Virus record (IMG/VR): IMGVR_UViG_3300022188_000008
Coordinates: 1 to 64,000 of that record
Origin: a virus
Length of the DNA stretch: 64,000 bases
Strand: one strand, 5' to 3'
Shown: piece by piece, positions 982-6,579 of the stretch
Layout: each line of letters opens with the position of its first letter
Position numbering within the stretch: the first letter of the stretch is position 1
The notes under the pieces: model-generated
Database searches by the model: none
The model's input: only the letters and a program-made list of their open reading frames with translations
What the model was told of the DNA's origin: nothing
Program-made: the position numbers and the translations under genes

Positions 982-1280
982 TGTAATCTCCTGAATTTTA
1001 CAACTTTAGATATCTTCTTTTCCTCTATTACGTGCCTTAAGTTTTTCATGTACAATTTGTCTAAGATGTACTCTATTATTATCCATACCACACACAGTGA
1101 GACGGTTAATATGAAAGATACCGTGAACAATTTTGAGAGGCTGACAGAAAGTATCTCACATACCACGGTAATAGCTTTAGTAATAAAGCAACATCCTGTA
1201 AATGTCATGAAGAAAACAACTATAATTGTGAAAAATGCCATAGTTATCCCTTGAAATCTTTCTATGGTTTTTAAAGACAT
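978..1280 (-). CDS. Hypothetical membrane protein (2 TM segments)
   Basis: GGAGG RBS, two hydrophobic stretches, stop overlaps the next start. Confidence 0.65.
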   Translation of the reverse strand: MSLKTIERFQGITMAFFTIIVVFFMTFTGCCFITKAITVVCEILSVSLSKLFTVSFILTVSLCVVWIIIEYILDKLYMKNLRHVIEEKKISKVVKFRRLQ

Positions 1281-1306
1281 TTAACACACCTCCTACTTAT
1301 TACTAG

Positions 1307-1331
1307 AAAGGCGGGGTTAACCCCGCCTTTT
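1307..1331. terminator. Intrinsic terminator downstream of the Ro-like gene
   Basis: aaaggcgggg-ttaa-ccccgccttt hairpin flanked by A/T runs. Confidence 0.75.
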
Positions 1332-1332
1332 G

Positions 1333-2787
1333 TTAAGGTCTGTTTATCTCATATTTTTTGATGGCTTCTAACATGATCGTATAAGGCGTGAATTCCGAGG
1401 CACTAAATATAGCCTTCAGAATGGAAGTGCTGAAACCAGATACTAATGCTGTATTTTCAACCCTAACTGTTTCAGGAGACCCTGCATAACCAGCAGTGTT
1501 CCAGTAGATTATCTTAGGTCTTTTATACCCAGCTTTATCCCATCTCTTCAATGCTTTGTTTACTTCTGTCTGTACTTCTTTAGGGTTGAAGCATTCCTCG
1601 TCCCAGAAACCCCCTTGTGACAAACCTTCATGAAATTGCATATCTGAAATAATCAATAAACAAGTAGGCATTTGCTCACTAGTGAGATTGAAGAATTTTG
1701 CTGTTTTGAGTATCAAGTCAAGAGCTTTATCAATCCTAGTTCCACCTACTGCACCATCAAATATCTCTCTATTTCTTACTGCTTCTGAAAATTTCATTCC
1801 ATTCCAATCCTTAAAACTACCTTCAGAACAGAATGCAATGAATTTCTTATGGAAAGGATTATCTTCAGGAATCTTGGCAGAACAATATAATGCCATTCCT
1901 ATAGATACATCTACAGCTCTAATAGAGCCAGACACTTGAACACTCATAGAGTATGAAGTATCAGAAATTACGATAATACGCTCTTTGTTACCCTCAAGAT
2001 AATTAGGAAGAGCATCAAATTGGGCATCTGCTATCTCCGTATCTCCACTTCTTACAGTTCTTACACAATCATGGGGGAAAAGCGCAGATGCTTTGATTTC
2101 TACCTTTCCTTTTCTCAAGTCCTCTTTGAATTTCCTGAAGCCTTCCTCATCGTGTTTAGCAAAAGCATTTGTATATCTTGCCATTGCTACAGAAGGCACT
2201 TTAGGATATTCAATCTCTCTCCAGAGGTTAGAACACATTTTATACTCTACAATGTGTTGCTTTCTAATTCTAGAAAGCAATCTTCTCAATCCAGCTTCGT
2301 TAGTATTCAATGCTTTTTGAAGGGGTTTATAATGTCTTTTAGCCCATTTAGCCGCAAGAATATCTTTTTTCTTTATAGCATCTACCCAGAATCTTGCAGC
2401 CTCTTCCTCCAAGTCAGTACCAAATAAAGCCTTCAAATCATCCCATCTTCCATATTCAGGGATTAAATGTAAATTGGCTTCCACCCACTTGTAGTTTGGA
2501 AAATCAAAAGGTAGGCTAGGGTCATAAGTGGCTAACCAATTAATACATTCTCTGAATCCAGATCTATTTCCAGCCCCTCCCCTACAATCTCTCAGCCAGA
2601 AGAGTAGTTTCATGGACAGTTCTTCATCTACTACCCACATTTTCTGAAAGAGAGAAAGAGCTGATTCCTCTGATCCATAAAAAGACTCTCTTTTCTTAAA
2701 AAGAGAACCTGCTTTGGAGAAGAATTCTAAATGATGATTTAAAGAGAAAGGATACTGAGTTCCACCTTCGTGGGTTTTGGAAAACAC
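1333..2787 (-). CDS. Ro60/TROVE-like protein with C-terminal vWA domain (DUF2828-type)
   Basis: LFWLRDCRGGAGNR, IPEYGRWDDL, LAAKWA and YPKVPSVAM motifs; MIDAS-like SDTSYSM; IISDMQF and IIYWN...VSGFS; GTG start with GGAGG RBS. Confidence 0.85.
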   Translation of the reverse strand: MFSKTHEGGTQYPFSLNHHLEFFSKAGSLFKKRESFYGSEESALSLFQKMWVVDEELSMKLLFWLRDCRGGAGNRSGFRECINWLATYDPSLPFDFPNYKWVEANLHLIPEYGRWDDLKALFGTDLEEEAARFWVDAIKKKDILAAKWAKRHYKPLQKALNTNEAGLRRLLSRIRKQHIVEYKMCSNLWREIEYPKVPSVAMARYTNAFAKHDEEGFRKFKEDLRKGKVEIKASALFPHDCVRTVRSGDTEIADAQFDALPNYLEGNKERIIVISDTSYSMSVQVSGSIRAVDVSIGMALYCSAKIPEDNPFHKKFIAFCSEGSFKDWNGMKFSEAVRNREIFDGAVGGTRIDKALDLILKTAKFFNLTSEQMPTCLLIISDMQFHEGLSQGGFWDEECFNPKEVQTEVNKALKRWDKAGYKRPKIIYWNTAGYAGSPETVRVENTALVSGFSTSILKAIFSASEFTPYTIMLEAIKKYEINRP

Positions 2788-2824
2788 GGCGAGACCTCCT
2801 GTTTGTTAAAAAAGGTTGATAAAC

Positions 2825-2891
2825 AGGCTGGGTTGTAAGTCAGATCCAAAGTCTGATGCTATATAAGCGAGAAATTTGCTGTACCCAGCCT
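2825..2891 (-). ncRNA. Array unit 1: stem-UACAGCAAA RNA carrying a tRNA-Gln(UUG)-like anticodon stem-loop
   Basis: aggctgggt/acccagcct closing stem; internal ucaga-CUUUGGA-ucuga at 2840-2856. Confidence 0.7.
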
Positions 2892-2915
2892 TGGCCTTCA
2901 TTTTCATACAAAAAC

Positions 2916-2977
2916 AGGGAGGCATTTTCTGGTTAGCTTATGAGGCTAAGTTGCATATGTTTTGCTGTAGCCTCCCT
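2916..2977 (-). ncRNA. Array unit 2: stem-UACAGCAAA RNA carrying a tRNA-Met/Ile2(CAU)-like anticodon stem-loop
   Basis: agggaggc/gcctccct closing stem; internal uuagc-CUCAUAA-gcuaa at 2933-2949. Confidence 0.7.
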
Positions 2978-2987
2978 TATTGTTAAG

Positions 2988-3054
2988 AGCGGGAAGATGG
3001 AATCGAACCATCCTGTTTTTCGGGTAGAAAAACATCTGCCACCCAGTTCCCGCT
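2988..3054 (-). ncRNA. tRNA-like RNA with canonical acceptor and T arms and a reduced D arm
   Basis: gcgggaa/uucccgc acceptor stem; gaugg-UUCGAUU-ccauc T arm; uguuuuuc/gaaaaaca middle arm; no encoded CCA. Confidence 0.7.
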
Positions 3055-3059
3055 AATAC

Positions 3060-3130
3060 AGACTGGCAAATAAATACAGAAGTCGGACCTGCTAAAATCC
3101 AATTATATATGTTTTTGCTGAAGCCAGTCT
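3060..3130 (-). ncRNA. Array unit 3: stem-UUCAGCAAA RNA
   Basis: agactggc/gccagtct stem; internal hairpin uugga...uccga whose loop contains UUUAG. Confidence 0.65.
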
Positions 3131-3155
3131 TCTTTGTTAATAACTTTTAAATAAC

Positions 3156-3205
3156 AGGTTGGTATCAGAACCCTCGCATGGTATTTTGTTTGCTGCAACC
3201 AACCT
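3156..3205 (-). ncRNA. Array unit 4: stem-UGCAGCAAA RNA (short)
   Basis: aggttggt/accaacct stem; weak internal acc-AUGCGAG-ggu hairpin. Confidence 0.6.
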
Positions 3206-3212
3206 TGATATT

Positions 3213-3308
3213 TGAGTAGGCAAGCGGCTCTGCCAGGAGGTTTAGGATTGGTTAAATAAATATAATAAATAAATTTTCTACCAAGGCAGTTAAGAACTTA
3301 CCTACTCA
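3213..3308 (-). ncRNA. Leader structured RNA (Y-RNA-like long bulged stem)
   Basis: 12-bp ugaguagguaag/cuugccuacuca stem (the U-G pair forms only on the minus strand); internal cugcc/ggcag and uuggu/accaa stems; AU-rich loop. Confidence 0.55.
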
Positions 3309-3322
3309 TTAACTTGAACTAT

Positions 3323-3351
3323 AATATACTATGAATTTAAACTCATGTCAA
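3323..3351 (-). promoter_or_regulatory. sigma70-type promoter driving the RNA array and Ro-like gene
   Basis: TTGACA-17 nt-TATATT, with TAG preceding the -10 as in the other phage promoters. Confidence 0.75.
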
Positions 3352-3643
3352 CATAAAAATCAAAATAACCTGCTTTTTCCACACTAAACTTGATTTTATT
3401 GGTTGTTTCTGTAACTTTTAAACCATATACAGGTACTTGATCTCCTTCTTCGATAGGCTTAAATCTTGGTGAGTAACCTAGGTATATAATGCTATTTTTC
3501 ATGAAATCATGCCTAACGAGAATTGGTATGAACTGCAACCAAATAAATGCCCTTACTAAAGTTTTAAGGGTTTTTTCTGTTTTAAATATTTCTGAAGAAA
3601 AAACCAAGATTCCTCTTCTTCTGCAAAATTCTTCAGGATTCAT
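3329..3643 (-). CDS. Hypothetical protein (likely start MNPEEF, shorter than the track ORF)
   Basis: AAAGG upstream of the internal ATG; this start avoids overlap with the upstream gene. Confidence 0.55.
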   Translation of the reverse strand: MNPEEFCRRRGILVFSSEIFKTEKTLKTLVRAFIWLQFIPILVRHDFMKNSIIYLGYSPRFKPIEEGDQVPVYGLKVTETTNKIKFSVEKAGYFDFYVDMSLNS

Positions 3644-3654
3644 ATTATTACCTT

Positions 3655-4044
3655 TTATGCAGGAGGTATTCTTTCTTTTGGGATATAATTGAAAAATCTT
3701 GATTTGAAAAAAGAATTCACTTTTAATACATTTCTTGCTTGTTCTAATGTCCAAGTCTTAGGGAATGCATCATAGCTTTTTCTTATCTTATCGCTATGAT
3801 GCTTAGTTATATAAGCTCTAATAGTCCTCCCTACAGCTTTATTGATACCTATTCTTTTATCAAAAACATCCAAAGTACTACATATAGCCAAACCTATTGC
3901 TACACATCCATCTTTATATATCTCACATTGGGTTATATTACCAATAATTCTAATGTTTATATGATCTGGGTTGATTTCCTCTAGCTTCTTCTTTAGCTTC
4001 TTATTTATGTATTTGAAATTTTTATCCCTGATTTTAACAAACAT
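3655..4044 (-). CDS. Hypothetical protein, paralogue of 4048-4434
   Basis: Shared motif AICSxLDVFDxxxGxNKAxGR...DxPxxWT. Confidence 0.7.
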   Translation of the reverse strand: MFVKIRDKNFKYINKKLKKKLEEINPDHINIRIIGNITQCEIYKDGCVAIGLAICSTLDVFDKRIGINKAVGRTIRAYITKHHSDKIRKSYDAFPKTWTLEQARNVLKVNSFFKSRFFNYIPKERIPPA

Positions 4045-4671: not shown

Positions 4672-6579
4672 TTAACTGAGGTAACTCCAACCATTCTCTT
4701 TTTTAACAATAAGTTTATTTTCAAATAATAAATCTTGCGAATGAGAGATTAATTCTATGGAATAATCGTTATTTTTAACTATTTCATTTAGCATATTCCT
4801 GATCTTTTCAGAACCTGCTGAATCAAGGGAAATATCTAATATCTCATCCATCCATAAGATATTATATGATACATCTAATAACTCTTCTACTATATGTTTT
4901 ATTGCGAGGATCTCTGCAAGTATTAGTCTTTGCTGCTCCCCTCCCGATAATTCTTCAAATTTTTTAGCTATACCATCATGTCTCATAACATAAATGGGTA
5001 TTTTTGTTATTTCTCCATCTTGGTTCTTTTCAGGTTGCATAACTACATTGAATGCCTGAAACTCCATTTCATTCAAAAATTTATTAATATGATATTCAAA
5101 TGTATCCATAAATGTTGTAATCAATTCATTAGGCAGTGCTATTCTAAACATTTGTTTGAGGATAGATAAATATTCCAACTTATCCTGTATTTTTTCTATG
5201 CTATTTTGCATTTCTTTTTCTTTATCTTCAGTAATCTTAATTTTGTTATTAAGCTCTTTTATTTCATGAAATAGCTTTTTGATCTCTGTTTTCTTCTCTT
5301 CTAATAGTTCTTTTCTGTCTTTAATCAAATCTAATTCTGTTTTTATTTTGACTTTTAAATAATTATAATCATCAAATTTAACTTTAAGATTAACAATCTC
5401 TGTCTCAGCAGCTTTTAGTTCATTTTCTTTTTGTTGAATAGCATCTTTATCTGAACTTATTATTTTGCATAATTTTTCATATTTTTCATTCATTTCAGCA
5501 GCATTAAGGATGATTTCAGACATTTTATTCTTGAGGTCTTTTAGCATTGTTTTCAGTTTATCTATGTGTTTTATTAATTTTTTAGATTTATGCTCTTTTA
5601 GATTAGTGAAGCATACAGGACATACTCCTTTAGAATATCTGCTGAGGTCTTTTGTTATATTATCTATTTCTTCACGAATATGTTCTAATTTATCTTCCTG
5701 CCTGTTTATCTCAAATTCCAATTTCATTTTATCATGTGTTTGTTCTTTAATATTTTTTTCTAGTTCTGCCATCTCTGCATATAATGCTTTAATTTTATCG
5801 TTATTTATGGCTTGTTTTAGTTTCTTCATTTCTATCTTAACAGCTTCTAATTTGTTATGAAGTTTCTTCTCTTCAGAAGCTAGCTTATCGAAATCAGCTT
5901 TCAATTCATTCTTAAGGATACTTAGCCTATCCTTCTTTCCATTAAGCGATTCTTGAAGCATAAATAGCGTATTAGCTACCACTTTCTTGTCTGTTTTTAA
6001 GGCTTCTGCCTGCTCTTCAAGGTCTTTTATCTCTTCTTTTACCTTGTCATAGCAAAATACCCTGAAGAACTTTATATCCTTGATAAACTCCTCGAAGAAC
6101 ATCTTTCGTTTAGATTCAGTCATTCTGAAGAGAGAAGCTCTTTCTAATTGAAAGATATTACAAAAGTGAAATAGCTTGAAATTTAAACCTAGTAAACTAT
6201 TAAGAAAATCTTGATTGACTTTATGAAAGCTAATATCTACTCCATTTTCAAATATCCTTAATTTGTTATGATATTCATCATGATTTCTATATCTAATGAT
6301 TTTATATGTTTTATTATCTCGTTGAAATTCTACTGATACTTCACAATTTTTCTTTAACTTATCATTCAGAACAGCATCCGCTTGTAGCTTCGGAAAGGTT
6401 TCTCCGTACAGACACCAACAAAAAGCAAGAAGGAGGTTGCTTTTACCACTTCCATTAGAACCCCCCTCATCTAAATTCATTCCAACTATTTGTTTGACAG
6501 TATTATGATTTAGATTAACATCTATGTTTTGCAAGCTCCTGAAATTCTTCGCTGTCAGCTTTGTGAAATTTATTCGCAT
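4672..6579 (-). CDS. SbcC/Rad50-like SMC ATPase (recombination nuclease subunit)
   Basis: Walker A NGSGKS, coiled coil with CPVC zinc hook, LSGGE signature, WMDE Walker B, ISH; likely start MRINF after GGAGG. Confidence 0.9.
   Translation of the reverse strand: MRINFTKLTAKNFRSLQNIDVNLNHNTVKQIVGMNLDEGGSNGSGKSNLLLAFCWCLYGETFPKLQADAVLNDKLKKNCEVSVEFQRDNKTYKIIRYRNHDEYHNKLRIFENGVDISFHKVNQDFLNSLLGLNFKLFHFCNIFQLERASLFRMTESKRKMFFEEFIKDIKFFRVFCYDKVKEEIKDLEEQAEALKTDKKVVANTLFMLQESLNGKKDRLSILKNELKADFDKLASEEKKLHNKLEAVKIEMKKLKQAINNDKIKALYAEMAELEKNIKEQTHDKMKLEFEINRQEDKLEHIREEIDNITKDLSRYSKGVCPVCFTNLKEHKSKKLIKHIDKLKTMLKDLKNKMSEIILNAAEMNEKYEKLCKIISSDKDAIQQKENELKAAETEIVNLKVKFDDYNYLKVKIKTELDLIKDRKELLEEKKTEIKKLFHEIKELNNKIKITEDKEKEMQNSIEKIQDKLEYLSILKQMFRIALPNELITTFMDTFEYHINKFLNEMEFQAFNVVMQPEKNQDGEITKIPIYVMRHDGIAKKFEELSGGEQQRLILAEILAIKHIVEELLDVSYNILWMDEILDISLDSAGSEKIRNMLNEIVKNNDYSIELISHSQDLLFENKLIVKKENGWSYLS

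What the first reader, a model, noticed from the sequence alone, without database searches (positions are those of the whole stretch)
2840..2949. Isolated anticodon stem-loops (Gln-UUG and Met/Ile2-CAU) embedded in non-tRNA scaffolds
On the minus strand, unit 1 holds ucaga-CUUUGGA-ucuga and unit 2 holds uuagc-CUCAUAA-gcuaa. Each has an exact 5-bp stem and 7-nt loop with C32, U33 and purine 37, the geometry of an anticodon arm, but no D, T or acceptor arms. Units 3 and 4 have weaker hairpins at the equivalent place (loops containing UUUAG and AUGCGAG). Met and Gln tRNAs are known targets of anticodon nucleases (VapC on tRNA-fMet; colicin E5 and D families act on other species). Inference: a panel of decoy substrates, each with a different anticodon.
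Basis: partly seen in the sequence, partly recalled or inferred. Interest (0 to 1): 0.85.

Follow-up and report, generated by a model that had tools for sequence, protein, structure and literature searches.

The report
Anticodon-arm mimics on phage Ro60-partner RNAs
Two small hairpins built like tRNA anticodon arms are real; they are the variable part of small RNAs that most likely dock onto a phage's Ro60-like ring protein, in an RNA family I found in no paper or catalogue I could search, and what they do is still untested.

Summary
On the minus strand, 2856..2840 is UCAGA-CUUUGGA-UCUGA and 2949..2933 is UUAGC-CUCAUAA-GCUAA. Each is an exact 5-bp stem with a 7-nt loop carrying C32, U33 and R37.

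Both lie inside two of four 50-71-nt units that share one handle: A-AGR stem, U-N-CAGCAA, variable cargo, stem, YCU-GUU. A single promoter reads the units together with a DUF2828/DUF7788 gene whose model folds like Ro60. The record is a 95-kb phage from hydrothermal-vent metagenomes.

Across 85 related loci the handle lies only on the gene's strand. Among hairpins chosen by geometry alone, loops read C/U-U-NNN-A/G-A far above shuffled controls, with 19 different triplets. In longer relatives the same position is the anticodon arm of a whole tRNA body, either with the handle replacing the acceptor stem or circularly permuted.

So these are tRNA-derived anticodon-arm mimics on Y-RNA-like partner RNAs. 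The "anticodon-nuclease decoy panel" idea is plausible but untested.

The handle also matches the conserved features of dictyostelid Class I RNAs. Earlier reports of this scan found the same RNA family on other DNA; I found no published description.

The parts
3323..3351 (-). Sigma-70-like promoter TTGACA-17-TATATT that would drive the array and the gene
   Evidence: 11 of 12 consensus matches, the best site in 1200-3800. It is conserved in L001. Consensus match only.
3213..3308 (-). Structured leader element with a 13-bp closing stem and no CAGCAA handle
   Evidence: MFE -29.5 kcal/mol, z = -4.6. The stem is kept in L001 through G-U/G-C changes. Variant contigs of run X6 lack it: 116 nt are replaced by 12 nt.
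3156..3205 (-). Unit 4: handle RNA. Its cargo is a 3-bp hairpin with the 7-nt loop AUGCGAG (3170-3182).
   Evidence: There is a compensatory A-U to G-C change in L001.
3060..3130 (-). Unit 3: handle RNA. Its cargo is a G-U-rich hairpin with a UAGC tetraloop, not anticodon-like.
   Evidence: In L001 the whole unit is swapped for one with a T-arm-like hairpin, GAGG-UUCGAUC-CCUC.
2988..3054 (-). tRNA-like element without a D arm or a handle: 7-bp acceptor stem, perfect T arm, loop CUACCCG
   Evidence: ARAGORN calls tRNA-Gly(ACC). Rfam gives only a weak tRNA-Sec match, 23.5 bits. Fold z = -3.1. Nearly identical in L001.
2916..2977 (-). Unit 2: handle RNA
   Evidence: fold z = -3.2.
2933..2949 (-). 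Unit 2 anticodon-arm mimic UUAGC-CUCAUAA-GCUAA (triplet CAU)
   Evidence: It is identical in L001 and unchanged in the roughly 93%-similar contigs of run X6. It matches 15 of 17 positions of a real phage tRNA-Met arm. The exact 17-mer occurs in 13 bacterial tRNA-Met(CAU) genes.
2825..2891 (-). Unit 1: handle RNA
   Evidence: fold z = -2.5.
2840..2856 (-). Unit 1 anticodon-arm mimic UCAGA-CUUUGGA-UCUGA (triplet UUG, G37)
   Evidence: In L001 the triplet is UUC and the stem has shifted by one pair.
2858..2868 (-). Unit 1 vestigial D-arm-like hairpin GCU-UAUAU-AGC, one base before the anticodon-arm mimic
   Evidence: it aligns with the D arms of tRNA-bodied units L071 1396-1485 and L054 1512-1609. 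Inference from the alignment.
2795..2800 (-). Ribosome-binding site AGGAGG, 7 nt before the GTG start
   Evidence: L001 has ATG at the same place.
1333..2787 (-). Ro60-fold gene (484 aa; Pfam DUF2828 + DUF7788; phrog_850 'RNA-binding protein')
   Evidence: AlphaFold2 model with mean pLDDT 88. The 12 best Foldseek matches are all Ro60/TROVE entries, E 1e-9 to 6e-6.
1307..1330 (-). GC-rich hairpin right after the stop codon; possible weak terminator or stabiliser
   Evidence: sequence; alignment. It is followed by UUUCU and then the next gene's RBS. The terminator scan did not list it.

Best explanation
The two hairpins are tRNA-derived anticodon-arm mimics. Each is the variable cargo of a small RNA of about 60 nt.

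The ends of each RNA pair into a conserved handle: 5' A-AGR...stem, then U-N-CAGCAA; 3' stem...YCU-GUU. Four such RNAs and one D-armless tRNA-like element are transcribed from one promoter together with a Ro60-fold (DUF2828/DUF7788) gene of a 95-kb phage.

Inferred steps:
1. The transcript is cut into single RNAs, perhaps helped by the tRNA-like element as an RNase P/Z signal.
2. The handle docks on the Ro60-like ring. This would parallel the way the terminal stem and the GGUCCGA or GNCGAA motif of Y RNAs dock on Ro60.
3. The anticodon arm stays exposed.
4. The exposed loop is offered to host proteins that read anticodon loops, and it holds them. This makes it a protein-mounted decoy or sponge. 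tRNA-cleaving defence nucleases are the most attractive target.

Odds: about 0.85 for 'anticodon-arm mimic on partner RNAs of the Ro60-like protein'; about 0.35 for the decoy or sponge function.
For: Shown:
- The hairpins are exact.
- The handle is shared by four units here and by no other convincing site in the 95-kb record.
- In 85 loci fetched by the protein alone, 67 carry 128 handle units on the gene's strand within 2.5 kb and none on the other strand.
- The protein model matches Ro60 over its full length: 1yvr E 1.3e-9, TM 0.6. It also matches Thermus phage phiLo Ro60, 9l5y.
- Infernal aligns CAGCAA of a relative onto the GCGAA motif of YrlA.

Anticodon-arm nature:
- 35 of 105 non-redundant units hold a Y-U-NNN-R-N 7-nt loop on a stem of at least 4 bp. 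Shuffles give 3.5 +/- 1.8. Strict CU-NNN-AA gives 31 against 0.5.
- 28 of 82 cluster representatives hold one, against 3.5 in shuffles.
- 22 of 26 such hairpins in short units have exactly 5 bp.
- With geometry-only selection, U33 is 75%, R37 94% and A38 90%, and the middle is mixed.
- 320 real tRNAs of the same loci read CU-NNN-AA in 48% and UU-NNN-AA in 26%.
- The same loops sit on different, compensated stems, and there are 19 triplets.

Descent from tRNA:
- Un-permuting long units gives ARAGORN tRNA calls whose anticodon is the hairpin after CAGCAA: Thr-UGU 523, Ile-UAU 721 and Ser-UGA 95 rotations. Ten shuffles of each gave none.
- Unit 1 aligns with tRNA-bodied units that have the handle in place of the acceptor stem.

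Indirect evidence for the function:
- The record has no true tRNA gene, no RtcB and no Rnl2-type ligase, so the arms are unlikely to serve phage tRNAs.
- Cargo turns over quickly between 92%-identical arrays.
- The Ro60-like gp130 of Bas63 is reported to counter the Ppl defence (10.1101/2024.10.10.617714).
- tRNA anticodon cleavage is a common defence that phages counter with tRNAs (PMC10264068, PMC11555353; abstracts).
Against: - No RNA data show that the units are made, cut out or bound.
- Binding of the handle to the protein is inferred from linkage and analogy only.
- About 57% of short units in the family lack an anticodon-like hairpin: they carry tetraloops, other loops or no hairpin. 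The arm is therefore optional cargo, not a requirement of the system.
- In the closest relative, unit 1 loses the loop-closing pair (A.A) and changes its triplet.
- Some triplets in the family (ACA, AAU, AUC) are not natural bacterial anticodons. This fits a specific-tRNA decoy poorly.
- The exact unit 2 arm occurs in only 13 tRNA-Met genes among 185,579 species genomes, none an obvious vent host. Mimicry of a particular host tRNA is therefore not shown.
- The one defence reported to be countered by a relative (Ppl) is described as a putative phosphodiesterase acting on DNA, not as an anticodon nuclease.
Confidence: 0.45

Rival explanations
1. Adapter or tether rather than decoy. The handle RNA bridges the Ro60-like ring to a tRNA-binding enzyme or to a ribonuclease, as Y RNA tethers Ro60 to PNPase. 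The complex would then act on tRNAs or other structured RNAs (surveillance, decay or repair), and the anticodon arm would be the docking site for the partner.
For: - Deinococcus Y RNA tethers Ro60 to PNPase (abstract of PMC4201824).
- Thermus phage phiLo Ro60, its two upstream Y-like RNAs and host PNPase form a ternary complex (PMC12135203).
- The Ro-like genes of most relatives sit inside phage tRNA clusters.
- TROVE proteins are discussed as RNA-repair platforms with a tRNA-like partner (PMC7824862).
Against: - This phage has no true tRNA genes, no RtcB and no Rnl2-type ligase in an 86%-complete record.
- A single fixed partner would not need 19 different triplets.
- Nothing identifies a partner enzyme.
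Confidence: 0.25
2. Vestige. The hairpins are leftovers of the tRNA bodies from which these RNAs descend. They are kept only because a stable hairpin helps the RNA fold or survive, and the triplet and loop identity have no function of their own.
For: - Many units have other cargo or none.
- Unit 3 is swapped wholesale, and unit 1 changes register and triplet between close relatives.
- Some triplets are not natural anticodons.
Against: - C32, U33, R37 and A38 and the exact 5-bp stem are kept across units whose proteins are only 30-60% identical, while the stems co-vary. This argues for selection on loop geometry.
- A tetraloop would stabilise a hairpin better than a 7-nt loop.
- The unit 2 arm is invariant in three diverged arrays, while the flanking cargo varies.
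Confidence: 0.18
3. Loop-loop pairing. Each arm pairs through its triplet with the complementary anticodon of a tRNA, or with a codon in an mRNA, and so brings that RNA to the Ro60-like ring.
For: - Anticodon-anticodon complexes between complementary tRNAs are stable (established knowledge, from memory).
- Triplets differ within an array.
Against: - Most triplets end in U36 (CAU, UGU, GUU, UCU, UUU).
- Their perfect partners would need A34. Bacterial tRNAs lack A34 except in tRNA-Arg ACG (established knowledge, from memory).
- No complementary loops occur within the array.
Confidence: 0.07
4. Chance hairpins in AT-rich intergenic DNA, with no relation to tRNA.
For: Short hairpins are common in AT-rich spacers.
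Against: - The chance rate is about 0.03 per unit.
- Family-wide enrichment is 8- to 60-fold.
- The hairpin is homologous in position to the anticodon arm of whole tRNA bodies.
Confidence: 0.02

Closest known systems
Bacterial and phage Y RNAs of the YrlA/YrlB type with Ro60 (Rsr) (Chen et al. 2014, PMC4201824; Rfam RF02553)
   Same: - Small RNAs lie next to a Ro60-fold gene on the same strand.
- The 5' and 3' ends pair into a terminal stem.
- A short conserved purine-rich motif lies beside the 5' strand. Infernal aligns CAGCAA on YrlA's GCGAA.
- The rest is tRNA-derived.
- Long relatives get sub-threshold YrlA matches, 31-38 bits, E 7e-5 to 8e-3.
   Different: - The motif is CAGCAA, not GNCGAA.
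- The protein matches Pfam DUF2828/DUF7788, not TROVE.
- In the YrlA model the anticodon stem is opened and runs on into the Ro-binding stem, so there is no anticodon loop (structure line). Here the anticodon arm is kept whole, and in the window's units it is the only tRNA part left.
- No window unit reaches any Rfam score.
Thermus phage phiLo Ro60 with Yrl1 and Yrl2 (PMC12135203; PDB 9KOP, 9L5Y)
   Same: - A phage Ro60-fold protein with several Y-like RNA genes directly upstream.
- RNA binding is shown there by experiment.
- The structure is among the fold matches of the window's protein.
   Different: - The phiLo RNAs carry the CGAA motif and a stem-bulge-stem shape.
- No anticodon-arm cargo is described for them.
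Dictyostelid Class I RNAs (Kjellin et al. 2021, PMC7919456; Rfam RF01414)
   Same: - Length of 42-65 nt.
- A short terminal stem.
- Conserved start AAG and end CUGU.
- An 11-nt motif next to the 5' stem. The Rfam RF01414 consensus reads CCUUACAGCAA there.
- A variable remainder.
- The phage consensus is (A/U)AGR...U-N-G-N-U-(U/A)-CAGCAA ... YCU-GUU.
- RF01414 matches whole phage units end to end: L029 1751-1805 at 31.6 bits and L038 904-959 at 23.3 bits.
   Different: - They are eukaryotic, expressed from their own DUSE promoters, and reported as unique to Dictyostelia.
- The known binder is an RRM protein, Rnp1A/CIBP.
- No link to a Ro60-like protein is reported.
- Scores are below the Rfam threshold of 41.5, and the window's own units give no RF01414 match.
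- I could not test whether dictyostelids have a DUF2828 protein.
Phage tRNAs that counter tRNA-targeting defences (PMC10264068; PMC11555353)
   Same: Phage-encoded RNAs with anticodon arms are used in conflicts over tRNA cleavage (abstracts).
   Different: - Those are complete, decoding tRNAs that replace cleaved host tRNAs or resist cleavage.
- The window's units cannot be charged or decode. They could act only by binding.

Membership tests
tRNA anticodon arm (geometry and descent) | 5-bp stem closing a 7-nt loop | tested here: met
   Units 1 and 2 are exact. 22 of 26 such hairpins in short family units have exactly 5 bp.
tRNA anticodon arm (geometry and descent) | Y32, U33, purine 37 (A38 common) with a free middle triplet | tested here: met
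   Loops are CUUUGGA and CUCAUAA. With geometry-only selection the family shows C/U 80%, U 75%, R 94% and A 90% at loop positions 1, 2, 6 and 7. Real tRNAs of the same loci read CU-NNN-AA in 48%.
tRNA anticodon arm (geometry and descent) | Sits where the anticodon arm of a tRNA body sits in homologues | tested here: met
   Un-permuted long units are called as tRNAs with the matching anticodon, and shuffles give no call. Unit 1 aligns with tRNA-bodied units.
tRNA anticodon arm (geometry and descent) | Recognised as tRNA by cellular enzymes (modifications at positions 34 and 37, U-turn fold) | not testable with these tools
   Needs modification mapping or a structure.
Y RNA / YrlA (Rfam RF02553) | Encoded beside a Ro60 orthologue, on the same strand | tested here: met
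   The units end 38 nt before the start codon of a Ro60-fold gene. 128 units lie on the gene strand in 85 loci and none on the other strand.
Y RNA / YrlA (Rfam RF02553) | Conserved GNCGAA(N)G motif near the 5' end | tested here: not met
   The motif here is U-N-CAGCAA. Infernal aligns it on GCGAA in a relative.
Y RNA / YrlA (Rfam RF02553) | tRNA-like domain with T arm, closed acceptor stem and D arm | tested here: not met
   The window's four units lack these arms. Long relatives have them.
Y RNA / YrlA (Rfam RF02553) | Score at or above the Rfam gathering threshold (69 bits) | tested here: not met
   There is no match in the window at E up to 10. Relatives score 31-38 bits.
Y RNA / YrlA (Rfam RF02553) | Bound by the Ro60 protein | not testable with these tools
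   Needs pull-down or gel shift.
Ro60 (TROVE + vWA ring) for the neighbouring protein | HEAT-repeat ring plus vWA domain fold | tested here: met
   The model has pLDDT 88 and pTM 0.89. The 12 top Foldseek matches are Ro60/TROVE entries over the full length.
Ro60 (TROVE + vWA ring) for the neighbouring protein | Sequence membership in Pfam TROVE, or similarity to a solved Ro60 | tested here: not met
   Pfam gives only DUF2828 and DUF7788. A profile search of PDB sequences finds no Ro60.
Dictyostelid Class I RNA (Rfam RF01414) | Start AAG, short terminal stem, end CUGU | tested here: met
   Window units read caAGG, gaAGA, taAGG and caAGG at the start and CCUGUU or UCUGUA at the end. Family consensus; published features.
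Dictyostelid Class I RNA (Rfam RF01414) | 11-nt motif next to the 5' stem (CCUUACAGCAA in the Rfam RF01414 consensus) | tested here: inconclusive
   The window units have UUGCAGCAA, CUUCAGCAA, CUACAGCAA and GUACAGCAA. The CAGCAA core is the same and the upstream part matches only partly.
Dictyostelid Class I RNA (Rfam RF01414) | Score at or above the Rfam gathering threshold (41.5 bits) | tested here: not met
   There is no match in the window. The best relatives score 31.6 and 23.3 bits.
   Needs cleavage or competition assays and phage genetics.
   The host is unknown. The unit 2 17-mer is found in 13 tRNA-Met(CAU) genes of scattered taxa among 185,579 genomes. Unit 1 was not searched.

The most novel reading that the evidence does not exclude
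The Ro60-like ring with its CAGCAA-handle RNAs is a programmable phage counter-defence. Each cargo anticodon arm, held on the ring, captures or inhibits a host effector that reads that anticodon loop (an anticodon nuclease or other tRNA-targeting immunity protein). Arrays evolve by swapping cargo cassettes. In addition, the same handle in dictyostelid Class I RNAs would mean that those orphan RNAs are eukaryotic relatives of this ribonucleoprotein.
Probability: 0.25. Interest if true: 0.9.

Novelty: new variant of a known kind. Interest (0 to 1): 0.68.

Why it matters
Ro60 and its Y RNAs are known from animals, bacteria and a few phages. What the tRNA-like part of bacterial Y RNAs is for remains open.

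Here the tRNA-like part is reduced to its anticodon arm alone. The canonical loop frame is kept while the triplet varies. This points to the anticodon loop as the working surface and makes the question directly testable.

The protein family is very common in cultured phages: 692 GenBank phage records carry it. These include Felixounavirus, where I found four unannotated units among the tRNA genes, and where a relative's Ro60-like protein is reported to counter a defence system. Laboratory models therefore exist.

The match of the handle to dictyostelid Class I RNAs, published as unique to social amoebae, offers a lead on their unknown function.

Tried and rejected
- **Rfam, window.** Scans at permissive E-values found no family for the four units.
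- **DNA similarity.** A search of the locus against GenBank phages found nothing.
- **Solved structures by sequence.** A profile search of PDB sequences found no Ro60; only the fold search did.
- **Expression.** No RNA holder was listed among public runs. All 24 holders are DNA contigs, mostly hydrothermal-vent metagenomes. Laid contigs gave natural variants only.
- **Host tRNA identity.** An exact search for the unit 2 arm in 185,579 species genomes gave 46 sites. 13 were called tRNA-Met(CAU), in scattered taxa. About three more look like tRNA by eye but ARAGORN missed them. The rest lie outside tRNA genes. No host was indicated.
- **RNA repair.** No RtcB or Rnl2-type ligase is in the record. 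The record is 86% complete, so this is weak. I did not search for T4 Rnl1-type ligase or polynucleotide kinase.
- **ESM Atlas.** It returned only DUF2828/DUF7788 phage clusters.
- **Dictyostelium.** I could not test whether it encodes a DUF2828 protein. The tools give no eukaryotic genomes or organism names for protein hits, and two literature searches gave nothing.
- **Loop-loop pairing.** Considered as a general mechanism and rejected, because most complementary triplets would need A34.
- **Not done.** I built no covariance model of the handle; a pattern scan with a strand control served instead. I ran no complex prediction, because the tool takes no RNA chain.

Full report
**The sequence.** Read on the minus strand, the stretch from 3351 to 1333 is one compact block, in this order:
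- a strong sigma-70-like promoter, TTGACA-17-TATATT, at 3351..3323 (11 of 12 matches);
- a structured leader at 3308..3213 (fold z = -4.6);
- unit 4 (3205..3156) and unit 3 (3130..3060);
- a D-armless tRNA-like element (3054..2988), which ARAGORN calls tRNA-Gly(ACC) and Rfam matches only weakly;
- unit 2 (2977..2916) and unit 1 (2891..2825);
- an AGGAGG ribosome-binding site and the GTG start (2787) of a 484-aa ORF.

The two hairpins of the finding are exactly as described. Unit 1 has UCAGA-CUUUGGA-UCUGA at 2856..2840. Unit 2 has UUAGC-CUCAUAA-GCUAA at 2949..2933.

**The scaffold is a conserved handle.** All four units share these features:
- a 5' A-AGR that opens a 7-9-bp stem;
- 1-2 bases, then CAGCAA;
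- variable cargo;
- the 3' strand of the stem ending YCU, followed by GU(U).

A pattern scan for this handle finds only these four convincing sites in the whole 95,305-bp record. The record is a 34% GC phage with no true tRNA gene. It comes from hydrothermal-vent metagenomes.

**The neighbouring protein.**
- Pfam gives DUF2828 + DUF7788, and PHROGs gives "RNA-binding protein".
- A profile search of PDB sequences finds no Ro60.
- An AlphaFold2 model (mean pLDDT 88) has Ro60/TROVE entries as its 12 best Foldseek matches, over the full length. They are Xenopus and human Ro60, Deinococcus Rsr, and the Ro60/TROVE structures 9L5Y and 9KOP of Thermus phage phiLo (9KOP assigned to phiLo).
- tblastn finds the family in 692 GenBank phage records, including mycobacteriophage genes annotated "Ro-like RNA binding protein".

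**Linkage of handle and gene.**
- I fetched 85 viral loci by the protein alone.
- 67 of them carry 128 handle units within 2.5 kb on the gene's strand, and none on the opposite strand.
- Units lie both upstream and downstream of the gene, often between true tRNA genes.
- The same holds for cultured phages. Felixounavirus VpaE1 has four unannotated units among its tRNA genes, and Cronobacter phage S13 has one.

- Of 105 non-redundant units, 35 hold a stem of at least 4 bp closing a 7-nt Y-U-NNN-R-N loop that is not a T loop. Shuffled cargo gives 3.5 +/- 1.8. For strict CU-NNN-AA the count is 31 against 0.5.
- With one representative per sequence cluster, the count is 28 of 82 against 3.5.
- In units of 70 nt or less, 26 of 60 have such a hairpin, and 22 of the 26 have exactly five pairs.
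- I also selected hairpins by geometry only (at least 5 bp, 7-nt loop). Short units hold 32 distinct ones where shuffles give 4.5.
- In those 32, loop position 1 is C in 59% or U in 21%, and position 2 is U in 75% against a background of 27%.
- Position 6 is a purine in 94% and position 7 is A in 90%. The three middle positions are mixed.
- The 320 real tRNAs in the same loci read CU-NNN-AA in 48% and UU-NNN-AA in 26%.
- There are 19 different triplets, and the same loop recurs on different, compensated stems. CUCAUAA sits on UUAGC/GCUAA, AACAA/UUGUU and ACAGA/UCUGU. CUUGUAA sits on four different stems.

**Descent from tRNA.** Long units of the family contain T arms, closed acceptor stems and D arms, and draw sub-threshold YrlA matches.
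- When their cargo is un-permuted, ARAGORN calls a tRNA whose anticodon is the triplet of the hairpin that follows CAGCAA.
- The counts are Thr-UGU in 523 rotations (L081), Ile-UAU in 721 (L036) and Ser-UGA in 95 (L010). Ten shuffles of each give no call.
- A second architecture has the handle in place of the acceptor stem (L071, L054). Unit 1 of the window aligns with these and looks like such an RNA that has lost its T arm. It keeps a 3-bp D-like hairpin one base before the anticodon arm.
- The window's units are therefore minimal members in which the anticodon arm is what remains.

**Variation among close relatives.** The array of L001 (protein 90% identical) is 92% identical in DNA.
- The unit 2 arm is unchanged. 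It is also unchanged in the roughly 93%-similar contigs of another vent sample.
- The 3-bp stem of unit 4 keeps pairing through an A-U to G-C double change.
- The triplet of unit 1 changes from UUG to UUC, and its stem shifts by one pair.
- Unit 3 is replaced as a whole cassette by a unit with a T-arm-like hairpin.
- Cargo therefore turns over much faster than the handle.

**Function.** Nothing computed here shows a function. My preferred reading has these steps:
1. The handle docks on the Ro60-like ring. This follows the analogy of Y RNAs, whose terminal stem and GGUCCGA or GNCGAA motif bind Ro60 (PMC4201824). It also follows phage phiLo Ro60, which binds two upstream Y-like RNAs in experiments (PMC12135203).
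2. The exposed anticodon arm engages a host factor that reads anticodon loops.
3. The factor is held there, so the RNA acts as a decoy or sponge.

Evidence that favours a host target:
- This phage has no true tRNA gene (only the D-armless tRNA-like element) and no RtcB or Rnl2-type ligase.
- The loops are canonical.
- The cargo turns over quickly.

Evidence that favours a role in conflict:
- The Ro60-like gp130 of Bas63 is reported to counter the Ppl defence (preprint).
- Anticodon cleavage is a common defence that phages counter with tRNAs.

Evidence against a strict "decoy of one tRNA each" reading:
- More than half of the short units have no such arm.
- Some triplets are not natural anticodons.
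- No host tRNA match could be shown.

A tether or adapter role, and a purely vestigial hairpin, remain live rivals.

**Comparison with the known.** This works like a Y RNA with a tRNA mimic, but it fails several membership tests for YrlA:
- the motif differs;
- the window's units have no T or D arm;
- there is no Rfam score.

It also keeps the anticodon loop, which the YrlA model lacks.

Separately, the handle reproduces the conserved features published for dictyostelid Class I RNAs: the AAG start, short stem, 11-nt motif (CCUUACAGCAA in the Rfam consensus), CUGU end and 42-65 nt length. Rfam's Class I model matches whole phage units below threshold, at 31.6 and 23.3 bits. The paper reports those RNAs as unique to Dictyostelia. 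I could not test whether dictyostelids have the protein.

**Earlier notes of this scan.** I consulted them only after forming this reading. They describe the same handle RNA family beside DUF2828 genes in many other genomes, including arrays of anticodon-arm mimics and the Class I resemblance. They agree with what I tested here. I found no published description of the RNAs.

Noticed in passing
window 2988-3054 (-): D-armless tRNA-like element in the middle of the array: 7-bp acceptor stem, perfect T arm, loop CUACCCG with C at position 37, no CCA. It is almost identical in L001. It could be an RNase P/Z processing signal for the polycistronic transcript, or a fifth mimic without a handle.
   Followed up: partly
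window 3213-3308 (-): Structured leader (13-bp closing stem, z = -4.6) between the promoter and unit 4. It is kept in L001 with pair-preserving changes. In variant contigs of run X6 it is missing, with 116 nt replaced by 12 nt, so it behaves as an optional cassette.
   Followed up: partly
L029 1751-1805; L038 904-959: Rfam's Dictyostelium Class I RNA model (RF01414) matches whole phage handle units end to end, below threshold (31.6 and 23.3 bits). The published Class I hallmarks equal the phage handle: AAG start, 11-nt motif (CCUUACAGCAA in the Rfam consensus), CUGU end.
   Followed up: partly
L086 4716-5492 (Escherichia phage vB_EcoM-VpaE1, NC_027337.1): Four unannotated CAGCAA-handle units lie between annotated tRNA genes just downstream of the Ro60-like gene of a Felixounavirus. 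One carries a tRNA-like body. This genus includes Bas63, whose Ro60-like gp130 is reported to counter the Ppl defence.
   Followed up: partly
L087 4857-5249 (Cronobacter phage S13, NC_028773.1): Two over-long 'tRNA' annotations (121 and 113 nt, one labelled tRNA-OTHER) lie downstream of the Ro60-like gene. A handle unit with a tRNA-like body follows at 5115-5249. The long 'tRNAs' carry a shared insert near the anticodon region.
   Followed up: no
L088 about 2935-2950 (Vibrio phage ValKK3): The words UUACAGCAAU lie about 20 nt before the start codon of the Ro60-like gene, with no obvious closing stem. This could be chance or a binding site in the gene's own leader.
   Followed up: no
L011 915-995: A strong Rfam tmRNA match (68.8 bits, E 9e-25) spans only 81 nt inside a phage tRNA cluster next to a Ro60-like gene. 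It may be a tRNA-like fragment of tmRNA or a miniature form.
   Followed up: no
window 1307-1330 (-): A GC-rich hairpin, AAAGGCGGGG-UUAA-CCCCGCCUUU, lies directly after the Ro60-like gene's stop codon. A weak U run follows, and then the RBS of the next ORF (978-1280). Transcription may read on into that gene and the dCMP deaminase gene.
   Followed up: no
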